Of a stretch of 64,000 nt of DNA, positions 10,279 to 48,329 are shown in pieces. The stretch lies in NCBI RefSeq assembly GCF_004010195.1, contig NC_057753.1:13381979-13445978 (forward strand). The letters run 5' to 3'. Positions within the stretch are counted from its first letter, which is position 1; the number at the start of each line of letters is the position of its first letter. Origin of the DNA: Chiloscyllium plagiosum (Eukaryota). The translations under genes were made by a program, and so were the position numbers. The notes below the pieces were generated by a model. The model was not told where the DNA came from and ran no database searches. It worked only from the letters and a program-made list of their open reading frames with translations.

Positions 10279-10792
10279 TCTCTCAGTCCGCAGTAATATA
10301 CTGCGCTGTCAGACAGCTGCAGCTCATTGATGGTGAAATTCCCCTCATTTTTTGATTTGTCCAAAGATGCAGAAAATCGATCCGACACCCCCTCTTCCCT
10401 CCTGATACTGCCATAGTTGTGAACGTAGATTAAGAATGTTGGAGATTTCCCTGGGTCCTGACGGTACAATTGCAACGTATACGTGTCACCTGTGGTCGAA
10501 TATCTGAAATGAATGGTTACTGAATCTCTTTCAAATTGTATCACTGTAACCGGCTTCTGTGAGATCGAAACGGCACAATTAACACCTGCGCAAATATAGA
10601 AAGAAAGTGACATTAAAATTATGATGATGACGAATGTGACAAGTCAAAGCATACACTGTAATAGAGGGAAATACAGACAAATCGAAGATTGCAATAAACA
10701 TTTTACCTATAAGAGAATATTTTACAACTCAGAAACTTACCTGTTAAGAGCGTTGCAGTAGTGAGAAACGAGTAAATGGTAAAAGTCGACAT
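10279..10792 (-). CDS. TCR alpha/delta V segment, family A copy 1 (leader 10741-10792, V exon 10279-10585)
   Basis: Leader MSTFTIYSFLTTATLLT-G|gtaagt; V ISQKPVTV..VTIHFRYSTT..LQLYRQDPGKSP..DRFSASLDK..SDSAVYYCGLR; open frame and RSS; Cys23->Phe, Trp41->Leu. Confidence 0.92.
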
Positions 10793-11249: not shown

Positions 11250-12800
11250 TGTGTATGCTGCAGAAGTTGCAGGATCAGTTCATTCCTAAAAGGAAGAAAG
11301 ATCACAGGAGGAGACATGGGCGGCCGTGGCTGACGAGGGAAGTAAAGAAACATATAAAGTTAAAAGAGAAAAAGTATAACATAGCTAAGATAAGTGGGAA
11401 AACTGAGGACTGGGAAGCTTTTAAAGAGCAACAGAGGATTACTAAGAAGGAACTTCGCAGCGGAAAAATGAGGTACGAAGGTAAACTGACCAAGAATATT
11501 AAGGAGGATAGTAAAAACTTTTTTAGGTATGTGAAAGGCAAAAAAATGGTTAGGACAAAAATTGGGCCCCTGAAGACAGAAACAGGGGAATATATTACAG
11601 GGAACAAAGAAATGGCAGAAGANNNNNNNNNNNNNNNNNNNNNNNNNNNNNNNNNNNNNNNNNNNNNNNNNNNNNNNNNNNNNNNNNNNNNNNNNNNNNN
11701 NNNNNNNNNNNNNNNNNNNNNNNNNNNNNNNNNNNNNNNNNNNNNNNNNNNNNNNNNNNNNNNNNNNNNNNNNNNNNNNNNNNNNNNNNNNNNNNNNNNN
11801 NNNNNNNNNNNNNNNNNNNNNNNNNNNNNNNNNNNNNNNNNNNNNNNNNNNNNNNNNNNNNNNNNNNNNNNNNNNNNNNNNNNNNNNNNNNNNNNNNNNN
11901 NNNNNNNNNNNNNNNNNNNNNNNNNNNNNNNNNNNNNNNNNNNNNNNNNNNNNNNNNNNNNNNNNNNNNNNNNNNNNNNNNNNNNNNNNNNNNNNNNNNN
12001 NNNNNNNNNNNNNNNNNNNNNNNNNNNNNNNNNNNNNNNNNNNNNNNNNNNNNNNNNNNNNNNNNNNNNNNNNNNNNNNNNNNNNNNNNNNNNNNNNNNN
12101 NNNNNNNNNNNNNNNNNNNNNNNNNNNNNNNNNNNNNNNNNNNNNNNNNNNNNNNNNNNNNNNNNNNNNNNNNNNNNNNNNNNNNNNNNNNNNNNNNNNN
12201 NNNNNNNNNNNNNNNNNNNNNNNNNNNNNNNNNNNNNNNNNNNNNNNNNNNNNNNNNNNNNNNNNNNNNNNNNNNNNNNNNNNNNNNNNNNNNNNNNNNN
12301 NNNNNNNNNNNNNNNNNNNNNNNNNNNNNNNNNNNNNNNNNNNNNNNNNNNNNNNNNNNNNNNNNNNNNNNNNNNNNNNNNNNNNNNNNNNNNNNNNNNN
12401 NNNNNNNNNNNNNNNNNNNNNNNNNNNNNNNNNNNNNNNNNNNNNNNNNNNNNNNNNNNNNNNNNNNNNNNNNNNNNNNNNCTGATGGGTGAGTGCCGAA
12501 CCAGAGGACACAGCTTAGAAATACGGGGTAGACCATTTAGGATAGAGATGAGGAAAAACATCTTCACCCAGAGAGTGGTGGCTGTGTGGAATGCTCTGCC
12601 CCACAGGGGGCTGGAGGGGCCCAGTGTCTGGATTCATTTAAGAAAGAGTTGGATAGAGCTCTCAAAGATAGTGGAATCAAGGGATATGGAGATAAGGCAG
12701 GAACAGGATATTGATTAGGAATGATCAGCCATGATCATATTAAATGGCGGTGCAGGCTCAAAGGGATGAATGGCCTACTCCTGCGCCTATTGTCTATTGT
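11250..12800 (+). mobile_element. Young CR1-type LINE (5'-truncated) spanning the assembly gap; unique to unit 1
   Basis: ORF2-like PWLTREVKKHIKLK..KNFFRYVKGKK..IGPLK and TRGHSLEIRG..FTQRVVAVWNALP; (tctattg)n tail; absent at the matching sites in units 3 and 4. Confidence 0.9.
11623..12481. other. Assembly gap (N run)
   Basis: Run of n. Confidence 1.
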
Positions 12801-21272: not shown

Positions 21273-21966
21273 TGCGCGTGTGTGTATATGCACGTGTCTG
21301 TGTATGCACGTGAGAGAGAGGTTGATTTCAGACAGATCGCCCTTGAAGGCCATAACATAATTAGTTACCAATCTTGATCTTCCTGTTAGTATCGCGCAGA
21401 GAATGGCAATACATGTTCACATTGCATCACGGTGAGGTGACACGCCGCTTCAAATCACACACCAAAATTTTAGGATTAATATTGAGATTCTTGTTTCAAG
21501 AAGGCTGATGAAAGTGTGGAAAACACTGTCCGTTGCAATGCTTGAAGAAAATAAAATGAAACTATTGGCTGCTGCATCTGAAATAAAATGTGCTGAGTAA
21601 ATCAGGCTACCATTTTTTTTTGGGGGGGGGGGGAGAGGGAGAAGGATATTTTTATTTTTGTTGACTGCGATACGTGTGAACTCAATTGTGGTGAGAAAAT
21701 TTCCGTCACAATTTCCGGACATAACCACTAGGGGGCAGGGTGAATCAGTGACGTATTGAATGTGAGGACGGAGTGACATTACACAGAGTGTGTGCAGCTG
21801 TTAGTGTGAAAGACTTGGTACCAAAAGATAAACTCCAAGACACAAAATATTCCACAATTTCGAAAGAAGGCTACATTGTGTTCGACATGAAAAGCGGATT
21901 TTTCTAGTTATCAATTTCTTTTTCTCAAGAAAATTCTGTGGACCTTACGTTTCATGTAACTTGATA

Positions 21967-22295
21967 ATGTTTCAAATTTACCAAGTTATTTTCTTGCTTT
22001 CCTCTCTAATCTACATGGTAGAAACTGGAGAAGATGAAGTAAGGCAACTGGTTCAGAAAACAGTTAAGGAGGCAGAAAACGCTTCCATGGAGTGCTCCAA
22101 AACAACATTGGACACAGTGCGTTGGTACAGACAGTTCCCAAACCAGCCACCCCAGTATCTGGTGATGGCCAAAAGAGAAGCTGATCAACATGAAAGAATC
22201 TCTGCTTCAGTCAGTACAGACAACAAACACAGTGTTCTAAGTGTGAGAGACGCCAGGCTTAATGACACCGCCATCTATCTCTGTGCCAATGGGGG
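21967..22295 (+). CDS. TCR alpha-type V segment, family C copy 1 (leader and V in one ORF)
   Basis: MFQIYQVIFLLSSLIYMVETGEDEVRQ..ASMECS..WYRQFPNQPPQYLV..DTAIYLCANG, then a consensus RSS. Confidence 0.92.
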
Positions 22296-22334
22296 CACAG
22301 TGTTATAAACAGAGGGCGAGTCTGAACAAAAACC
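22296..22334 (+). other. 23-RSS of V-C1
   Basis: CACAGTG-23 bp-ACAAAAACC (perfect consensus). Confidence 0.97.
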
Positions 22335-22517
22335 TATACCGAGTGGGAGTGCCGCCGTTCTGAGCATTAATGTTATTATTTCTTGGCTCTATAATTCGAT
22401 GTTAAGGGGAACGTGATCACGAGAAAAAAAAAATAATATGGCCGAGCAAAATGCAAAGAGTGCAAGAAGTGAAGAGAATTGGAAATCTGGGCAGAGACAA
22501 AGCAAGCATATACTTAT

Positions 22518-22654
22518 ATGAAGTAAGGCAACTGGTTCGGAAAACAGTTAAGGAGGCAGAAAACGCTTCCATGGAGTGCTCCAAAACAACATTGGGCACA
22601 GTGCTTTGGTACAGACAGTTCCCAAACCAGCCACCCCAGTATCTGGTGATGGTC
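22518..22654 (+). pseudogene. Partial copy (FR1-FR2) of V-C1 fused to a SINE
   Basis: Near-identical to 22034-22170; no leader or RSS. Confidence 0.9.
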
Positions 22655-23058
22655 AGACCCGGGTTCAATTCCCGCCTCAGGCGACTGACTGTGTGGAGTT
22701 TGCACGTTCTCCCCGTGTCTGCGTGGGTTTCCTCCGGGTGCTCCGGTTTCCTCCCACAGTCCAAAGATGAGCAGGTGAGATGAATTGGCCATGCTAAATT
22801 TCCCGTAGTGTTAGGTAAGGGGTAAATGTAGGGGTATGGGTGGGTTGCGCTTCGGCGGGTCGGTGTGGACTTGTTGATAAAAACAATGACTGCAGATGCT
22901 GGAAACCAGATTCTGGATCAGTGGTGCTGGAAGAGCACAGCAATTCAGGCAGCATCCGAGGACAGGCAAAATCGACGTTTCGGGCAAAAGCCCTTCATCA
23001 GGACTTGTTGGGCCGAAGGGCCTGTTTCCACACTGTAATGTAATCTAATCTAATCTAA
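22655..23058 (+). mobile_element. 5'-truncated SINE with nested Penelope-like fragment (22877-23000)
   Basis: SINE body and (TAATC)n tail; nested insert flanked by TSD GGACTTGTTG (22867-22876, 23001-23010). Confidence 0.88.
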
Positions 23059-31386: not shown

Positions 31387-31724
31387 ATGATGTCTCAAAC
31401 TTTCCGAGTTCTTTTCATGCTTTCCTCTCTGATCCACATAGTAGAAACTGGAGAAGATGAAGTAGTGCAACTTGCTCAATGGACAGTTGTCAAGGAGGCA
31501 GAAAACGCTTCCATGGAGTGCTCCATAGCAACGGCATCTGGCAGAGTGCATTGGTACAGACAATTCCCGAACCAGCCAGCCCAGCATCTGGTGATAGCCA
31601 AAACAGAAGCTAATCAACGTGAGAGAATCTCCGCTTCAATCAGTACAGACTACAAACACAGTGTCCTAAGTGTGAGAGACACCAGACTTAATGACACCGC
31701 CATCTATCTCTGCGCCAATGGGGG
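31387..31724 (+). CDS. TCR alpha-type V segment, family C copy 2 (leader and V in one ORF)
   Basis: MMSQTFRVLFMLSSLIHIVETGEDEVVQ..MECS..WYRQ..DTAIYLCANG. Confidence 0.92.
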
Positions 31725-31763
31725 CACAGTGTTACAAACAGAGGGAGAGTCTGAACAAAAACG
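31725..31763 (+). other. 23-RSS of V-C2
   Basis: CACAGTG-23 bp-ACAAAAACG. Confidence 0.95.
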
Positions 31764-47952: not shown

Positions 47953-48290
47953 ATGATGTCTCAAATTTACCGAGTTCTTTTCCTGCTTTCCTCTCTGATC
48001 TACAAGGTAGAAACTGGAGAGGATGAAGTCACGCAACTTGCTCAGTGGAAAGTTGTTAAGGAGGCAGAAAACGCTTCCATTGAATGCTCCACAACAAACA
48101 CATTTGACACAGTGCACTGGTACAGACAGCTCCCGAACCAGCCGCCCCAGCATCTGGTGATGGCCAAAAGAGAAGCTGATCAACATGAGAGGATTTCTGC
48201 TTCAGTCAGTACAGACTACAAACACAGTGTCCTGAGTGTGAGAGACACCAGACTTAACGACACCGCCATCTACCTCTGTGCCAATGGGGG
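47953..48290 (+). CDS. TCR alpha-type V family C copy 3 (leader and V in one ORF)
   Basis: MMSQIYRVLFLLSSLIYKVETGEDEVTQ..IECS..WYRQ..DTAIYLCANG. Confidence 0.92.
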
Positions 48291-48329
48291 CACAGTGTTA
48301 CAAGCTGAGGGAGAGTCTGAACAAAAACC
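48291..48329 (+). other. 23-RSS of V-C3
   Basis: CACAGTG-23 bp-ACAAAAACC. Confidence 0.97.

What the first reader, a model, noticed from the sequence alone, without database searches (positions are those of the whole stretch)
21967..22334. Apparently intronless leader+V family (C1 21967, C2 31387, C3 47953) with near-perfect RSS
Seen: the ATG, a hydrophobic signal-like stretch (e.g. VLFLLSSLIY) and the V are one reading frame in all three copies, whereas families A, B and D have the usual phase-1 leader intron. An AG at GTAG|AAACT could be an acceptor, but the nearest conserved donor (TCAT|gtaac) would splice to a TAA stop and I found no upstream leader exon. The domain is compact (short CDR1/CDR2) and looks like TRAV4/TRAV26-type segments. 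From memory, single-exon leader-V genes were reported for chicken V-alpha1 and marsupial TCR-mu Vmuj (needs verifying). Inference: an ancient intron loss or retro-insertion of a germline V transcript that kept its RSS.
Basis: partly seen in the sequence, partly recalled or inferred. Interest (0 to 1): 0.7.

Follow-up and report, generated by a model that had tools for sequence, protein, structure and literature searches.

The report
Shark receptor genes missing leader intron
At least 19 shark T-cell-receptor variable gene segments carry their predicted signal peptide and variable domain in one unbroken reading frame ahead of an intact recombination signal, likely after one old loss of the usual intron; chickens have a known family built the same way, so this is a new case of a known oddity.

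Summary
Confirmed. The window is part of a shark TCR alpha/delta V array (best protein hits Chiloscyllium punctatum, 78-84%). C1-C3 belong to a family of 19 intact copies in this genome, in two subfamilies. All 19 have an ATG 21-22 codons before the mature V, no stop or indel, and a 23-spacer RSS; 9 of 9 other V genes in the window have a split phase-1 leader. The suspected acceptor AG is missing in 9 of 19 copies, and no shared upstream leader exon was found. Contigs of a probable RNA run cross the leader colinearly and stop at the heptamer. Nurse shark alpha cDNAs (7 of 19 rows labelled aV9) are homologues. The leader has the 52+11-nt layout of a spliced one and its likely sister gene keeps the intron, so in-place intron loss is likeliest; an intron end turned signal peptide is the main rival. 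One clade with bird TRAV1 is rejected (AU p=0.035): probably independent of chicken. A TRAV4/26 tie is unresolved (p=0.30). Known kind (chicken TRAV1/TRGV1); not found in print for sharks, but key shark papers were not held. This scan already noted the family in at least 5 other genomes.

The parts
21967..22029 (+). C1 single-exon leader, 21 codons: 52 nt matching L-part1 (21967-22018) fused to 11 nt matching L-part2 (22019-22029)
   Evidence: signal-peptide role inferred from hydropathy, SignalP not available
22030..22295 (+). C1 V region (V-set; compact CDR1 and CDR2 region; two single-codon deletions against most copies)
22296..22334 (+). C1 RSS, consensus heptamer, 23-nt spacer, consensus nonamer
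   Evidence: X1 contigs end at 22291-22295
21725..21780 (+). C1 upstream CTCF-like and CRE-like motifs (promoter region; motifs recalled, function untested)
21954..21959 (+).
22520..22657 (+). Leaderless partial tandem copy of the C1 V region, cut off by a repeat element
   Evidence: (L021); duplication joint also in run X2
31387..31763 (+). C2 leader+V+RSS (nonamer 1 mismatch); the only copy of 19 with an AG at the canonical acceptor position
47953..48329 (+). C3 leader+V+RSS, perfect RSS

Best explanation
These are shark TCR alpha/delta V gene segments whose predicted signal peptide and V domain lie in one reading frame before an intact 23-spacer RSS, likely because one ancestral V gene lost its leader intron cleanly and in place and was then duplicated. 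They would work like any V-alpha: the upstream promoter drives transcription, RAG joins the V to a J at the RSS, and the only splicing needed is J to C. The 21-residue leader would be translated from the same exon and cleaved. Shown: the genomic layout, family-wide conservation, split leaders in other families, and homologous rearranged cDNAs in nurse shark. Inferred: unspliced leader in mRNA (contigs of a run only guessed to be RNA), signal-peptide function, single loss, independence from birds. Whether the intron went by recombination with a cDNA or by DNA deletion cannot be told; cDNA-templated replacement is my preferred guess because the join is exact.
For: 19 of 19 intact copies: ATG 43 codons before the first Cys (42 in L001, 44 in L005), no stop, RSS present. 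52+11 nt puts the join 77 nt before the Cys codon, where the acceptor lies in 21 of 24 control genes by script (B1 and B3 read 74 because the script measured to the Phe codon before the Cys, so also 77; L044 is 74). Codon -4 starts with G in 19 of 19, as a phase-1 join needs. AG at the canonical position in 1 of 19 and at +3 in 10 of 19, none of these in C-II. No leader exon shared between copies within up to 1450 nt upstream. X1 depth only 21833-22295; contig 1 runs 21844-22161 and contig 4 runs 21984-22169 colinearly; no splice joint listed; four contigs end at 22291-22295. 7 of 19 nurse shark aV9 cDNA rows are homologues with junctional ends. C is one clade (100/97) with C. punctatum proteins and an unnamed-source ORF (P0007) that has the same 21-residue leader; its likely sister includes L033, which has a 58-nt leader exon and a 176-nt intron. 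The exon-versus-intron score is positive for 9 of 9 C-II copies; controls: exons positive 23 of 24, introns 0 of 24.
Against: Leader dN/dS is about 1 within each subfamily (1.12 and 1.01; FR3 0.18 and 0.20), so codon-level selection on the leader is not shown. C-I scores near zero in the exon/intron test (-4.4 to +3.2; 8 of 10 negative). C-I has a charged residue at -3 if cleavage follows Gly21, and L009 has Arg at -1. All 10 C-I copies keep an AG at +3 whose 74-nt spacing matches one real acceptor (L044). X1 is only guessed to be RNA, is from another organism label, and gives contigs, not reads; only 8 of its 20 laid records were shown; the two raw single-cell RNA runs gave 0 reads. The sister branch is weak (91/67). 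No sequence likeness to the leader exon, intron end or promoter of L033 (z -1.1 to 2.0), so the route of loss is not traced directly.
Confidence: 0.68

Rival explanations
1. The genes are single-exon, but by another route: the original leader exon was lost, the acceptor decayed, and an ATG inside the pyrimidine-rich intron end was recruited, so the old intron became the signal peptide.
For: 4 of 31 intron-bearing V genes parsed already have an in-frame ATG and a hydrophobic read-through of the intron end, the likely sister gene L033 among them. The last three bases before the join are one change from an acceptor in most copies. Leader dN/dS about 1. C-I composition is ambiguous.
Against: The 52-nt length equals the leader exons of families B and D, and B1 and B3 end in the same triplets as C1 and 9 other copies. 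C-II scores exon-like in 9 of 9. No decayed leader exon or donor shared upstream. No likeness to the L033 intron end.
Confidence: 0.18
2. A spliced germline V transcript running through the RSS was reverse-transcribed and inserted at a new place in the array.
For: Exact intron-free join; retro-origin is proposed for marsupial TRMVj (PMC2275272, passages).
Against: Promoter-type motifs upstream in both subfamilies, and X1 depth starting about 130 nt before the ATG; no shared poly(A) tract downstream (runs of 7 or more A in 3 of 19); position inside the V array. Such marks could have decayed in an old event.
Confidence: 0.07
3. An ordinary split leader: a distant upstream exon splices to the AG at 22020-22021, and the hydrophobic stretch is just the polypyrimidine tract.
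For: AG present in 10 of 10 C-I copies; 74-nt spacing seen in one control; only up to 1450 nt upstream were scanned.
Against: AG absent in 9 of 9 C-II copies; ATG and length fixed across both subfamilies, broken copies, C. punctatum and P0007; X1 contigs bridge the site with no joint listed.
Confidence: 0.04
4. One very old loss shared by sharks and birds: family C and chicken TRAV1 descend from the same intronless gene.
For: Same compact CDR2-region length as the TRAV4/26-like group; family C as the shark arm of that wider amniote group is not rejected (p-AU 0.30).
Against: C plus bird TRAV1 as one clade is rejected (p-AU 0.035). Bird TRAV1 nests among lizard and mammal V domains (97/90) whose gene models join in at L-part2, which implies an acceptor there (indirect).
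Confidence: 0.03

Closest known systems
Chicken TRAV1 (V-alpha-1) and TRGV1 single-exon leader V families (PMC10972964, passages read)
   Same: Leader and V in one exon, unrearranged, with RSS, expanded to a multi-copy family in a TCR locus, interleaved with intron-bearing families.
   Different: Not one clade with family C. Many chicken TRAV1 have low-scoring RSS and are rarely used in the splenic alpha repertoire; here the RSS are near consensus. Chicken itself was not in the tree: duck and curlew proteins carrying the paper's TRAV1 motif stood in.
Nurse shark TCR alpha cDNAs labelled aV9 (PMC5931798, passages and supplementary file 3)
   Same: 7 of 19 aV9 rows are homologues of family C by motif hits and reading by eye, rearranged and cloned from TCR alpha cDNA.
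   Different: The rows start at the mature V, so they say nothing on the leader; the aV9 label also covers unrelated V types; no gene structure for this family in the passages read.
Marsupial TCR-mu TRMVj (PMC2275272 and PMC6170632, passages)
   Same: Leader intron missing; retro-origin or intron deletion proposed.
   Different: TRMVj is joined to D and J in the germline; family C is unjoined and keeps its RSS.
Mammalian TRAV4/TRAV26-like V segments (P0034, P0063, P0068, P0078; the family label is my recall, one PDB title names TRAV26)
   Same: Same short Trp-to-Cys span (53 residues in P0063) and a similar FR2.
   Different: Grouped with bird TRAV1, not with C, in the best tree; split leaders (recalled; indirect support).

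Membership tests
Functional TCR alpha/delta V gene segment | V-set domain with both cysteines and the conserved tryptophan | tested here: met
   Pfam V-set in C1-C3; C44, W55, C108 invariant in 19 of 19
Functional TCR alpha/delta V gene segment | 3' RSS with 23-nt spacer | tested here: met
   heptamer consensus in 18 of 19, nonamer 0-3 mismatches
Functional TCR alpha/delta V gene segment | Rearranged to J and expressed with C-alpha | tested here: met
   Homologous nurse shark alpha cDNAs; X1 contigs end at the heptamer. Shown for the family, not for C1 itself
Functional TCR alpha/delta V gene segment | Canonical split leader with phase-1 intron | tested here: not met
   0 of 19 copies have it; 9 of 9 other V genes in the window do
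Single-exon leader V genes (chicken TRAV1/TRGV1 type of layout) | ATG, leader and V in one genomic frame with RSS kept | tested here: met
Single-exon leader V genes (chicken TRAV1/TRGV1 type of layout) | mRNA colinear across the leader | tested here: inconclusive
   Colinear contigs in a run only guessed to be RNA; raw RNA runs gave 0 reads
Single-exon leader V genes (chicken TRAV1/TRGV1 type of layout) | Leader is a cleaved signal peptide | not testable with these tools
   Hydropathy peak 2.0-3.0 over 9 residues in 19 of 19; no SignalP
Bird TRAV1 lineage (orthology) | One clade with bird TRAV1 | tested here: not met
   p-AU 0.035, 66 rows x 94 columns
TRAV4/TRAV26-like amniote group (orthology) | One clade with that group | tested here: inconclusive
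   Not in the best tree; p-AU 0.30
Germline-joined retroposed V (TRMVj type) | V already joined to (D)J, RSS gone | tested here: not met
   RSS intact in 19 of 19
Processed retrocopy | Poly(A) tail, no native promoter, new location | tested here: not met
   target-site duplications not tested

The most novel reading that the evidence does not exclude
The signal peptide of this whole shark V-alpha family is a former intron end: the polypyrimidine tract of the leader intron was turned into coding sequence after the first exon was lost, a route that several intron-bearing V genes in the same locus, including the sister gene, are already one step from.
Probability: 0.18. Interest if true: 0.55.

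Novelty: new member of a known kind. Interest (0 to 1): 0.3.

Why it matters
The split leader is described as present in all antigen receptor genes (PMC12227049, passage). This family adds a second, probably independent, vertebrate lineage in which an unrearranged, RSS-bearing V family does without it, and here it has near-consensus RSS and is used in alpha chains. In practice, annotation pipelines that demand a splice acceptor will miss or misfile these genes. It gives a natural test of whether the leader intron matters for V expression and, since shark TCR alpha is hypermutated (PMC5931798), for mutation targeting. It changes no principle of V(D)J recombination.

Tried and rejected
Raw-read test of splicing: single-cell runs X6 and X7 gave 0 reads on 21300-22500, which is no test; no RNA holder on record was listed. 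Search for full-length V-J-C proteins with the family profile: none among 7992 scored candidates, weak evidence. Metagenome scan for DNA of distant members: 1 locus of 102 candidate stretches, 43% over 35 residues, not used. Direct tracing of the leader to the L033 exon or intron: no signal; a search for more L033 copies gave only a broken fragment. dN/dS on the leader: uninformative. PDB search: many TCR alpha chains at similar weak scores, no family assignment. L036 as a second intronless family: rejected, its paralogue L047 lacks the ATG and both have an acceptor. No leader exon was found for 6 of 23 parsed outside loci (L036, L042, L045, L046, L047, L049); L035 and L051 did not parse; these and L048 and B2 were left out of the 24-gene control set. 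Literature: nine searches listed no paper describing an intronless shark V-alpha; passages of PMC12529555, PMC12698447, PMC10322711, PMC8656973 and PMC5278385 had nothing on it. Not held and not read: Criscitiello 2010, Ott 2020 and 2021, Deiss 2019, Parra and Miller 2012, Gobel 1994; any of the shark papers or their supplements could already mention it. No structure was predicted.

Full report
Setting. A scan for RSS and V motifs finds V genes of four families in the window, three copies each of A, B, C and D, with 23-spacer RSS (the B3 RSS did not pass that scan's cut-off). The window is G000:C44:13381979-13445978 and is built of duplicated units of 77-88% identity, apart from one short local repeat at 96%. 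The only protein hits to C1 are four Chiloscyllium punctatum models at 57-84%. Family B resembles nurse shark aV1 cDNAs by eye. So this is a shark TCR alpha/delta V array.

Observation. C1, C2 and C3 each run from ATG through a hydrophobic stretch and a V-set domain to the heptamer without a stop. A genome search gave 53 matches; the top 19 are intact family members, 10 of subfamily C-I (9 at C44 13.40-13.53 Mb, one on C81586) and 9 of C-II (6 at C44 12.17-12.42 Mb, 3 on small contigs that may be haplotype duplicates); the count is a lower bound. In 19 of 19 the ATG stands 43 codons before the first Cys (42 in L001, 44 in L005) and the RSS is present. The leader region is 63 nt in all 19 while the 63 nt upstream range from 44 to 95 nt in the alignment. 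Five broken copies keep the same unbroken leader. All 9 other V genes of the window have a phase-1 leader intron, as do 17 of 23 parsed V genes from elsewhere in the genome; for 6 no leader exon was found in the stretch fetched. A single read-through ORF proves little, since 4 of 31 non-C genes have a chance in-frame ATG in the intron end; the family pattern is the evidence.

Hidden exon? In controls the acceptor lies 77 nt before the Cys codon (21 of 24 by script, 23 after correcting B1 and B3). In C that position has an AG in 1 of 19. Candidate upstream exons within up to 1450 nt are unrelated between copies and mostly fall in simple repeats. The assembly is not at fault: run X2 holds 21828-22085 with one difference (it may not be independent of the assembly), and C. 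punctatum models carry the same leader.

Expression. Run X1 (another organism label, RNA by guess) has depth only from 21833 to 22295 whereas X2 also covers both flanks. Of the 8 X1 records shown (20 laid), two bridge the leader-V join colinearly, four end at 22291-22295, and one carries 243 further letters that do not fit, on the downstream side by my reading, as J-C would. No splice joint is listed. Two raw single-cell runs gave no reads. In the nurse shark alpha cDNA table (PMC5931798, supplementary file 3), rows 391-394 and 400-402, 7 of 19 labelled aV9, are homologues with junctional ends; they begin at the mature V. The family is therefore rearranged and expressed; an unspliced leader in mRNA is supported but not proved.

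Origin. In a 66-row, 94-column tree (12 family C rows, picked from 310 domains) family C is one clade (100/97) that includes P0007, an unnamed-source ORF with the same 21-residue leader and a read-through of its RSS. Its weakly supported sister (91/67) is L033 plus three elephant shark proteins; L033 has a 58-nt leader exon and a 176-nt intron. Loss in C is thus the simple reading. The leader has the layout of a spliced one: 52+11 nt, as in families B and D, with codon -4 starting with G in 19 of 19. A composition score trained on 24 control genes separates exon ends from intron ends (23 of 24 and 24 of 24 right when the own family is left out) and of 9 C-II leaders exon-like but leaves C-I near zero. 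Against over-reading: leader dN/dS is about 1 and nothing aligns to L033's exon, intron or promoter. CTCF-like motifs (10 of 19 copies) and CRE-like motifs (15 of 19) lie upstream, both patterns recalled, and there is no shared poly(A), so in-place loss fits better than insertion of a retrocopy. An in-place event also explains the kept RSS without needing a transcript through it. cDNA-templated replacement or DNA deletion cannot be told apart.

Relation to birds. Chicken TRAV1 (all but 3 of 48) and most TRGV1 have single-exon leaders (PMC10972964, passages). Duck and curlew proteins with that paper's TRAV1 motif group with lizard and mammal V domains (97/90). Forcing them with family C is rejected (p-AU 0.035), a moderate result on a short alignment. 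Forcing C with the whole amniote group is not rejected (p-AU 0.30). Gene models of the mammal relatives join in at L-part2, indirect evidence of introns there. Separate losses in sharks and birds are the likely reading. Marsupial TRMVj is intronless but germline-joined (PMC2275272; PMC6170632).

Novelty. The layout is a known kind. Nine literature searches showed no report for sharks, and a 2025 shark paper still calls the split leader universal (PMC12227049), but six relevant papers were not held. This scan has 9 earlier notes on the same kind of family in at least 5 other genomes (8 shown, seen after my tests and not taken as support); none near this place or by sequence. Verdict: real, a new member of a known kind, interest 0.3.

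Noticed in passing
window 21954-21959 and the same offset in other copies: A start codon followed at once by a stop lies 13 nt before the main ATG in 8 of 10 C-I copies and in one C-II copy (L016), with all three stop codons used. It may be a start-stop element that tunes translation, or chance.
   Followed up: partly
window 22520-22657: Leaderless partial tandem copy of the C1 V region, 467 nt downstream, ended by a repeat; the joint is also in run X2.
   Followed up: partly
family D, minus strand, V exons near 10508, 38225, 54476: All three have Phe for the first Cys and Leu for the conserved Trp yet keep an open frame and RSS; D2 and D3 use a GC donor for the leader intron.
   Followed up: partly
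L033 (G000:C44 about 14.115 Mb), L043, L036, L045: Intron-bearing or acceptor-bearing V genes with an in-frame ATG in the intron end that gives a hydrophobic read-through; intron retention could yield an alternative leader.
   Followed up: partly
upstream of family C (window 21725-21737 for C1): A CTCF-like motif 187-282 nt before the ATG in 10 of 19 copies and in 0 of 24 control V genes, scanned with a somewhat narrower recalled pattern over 350 nt.
   Followed up: partly
L036 and L047 (G000:C44 2.42 and 2.53 Mb): Two compact V genes about 10 Mb from the main array, with an acceptor right at the start of the V and no leader exon found within the stretch fetched.
   Followed up: no
L044 (G000:C44 12.429 Mb): Divergent intron-bearing V, with a stop just before the RSS, that falls next to the bird TRAV1 and TRAV4/26-like group on a long branch (88/65); possibly the shark member of that group.
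   Followed up: no
window 11623-12481: Assembly gap of 859 N.
   Followed up: no
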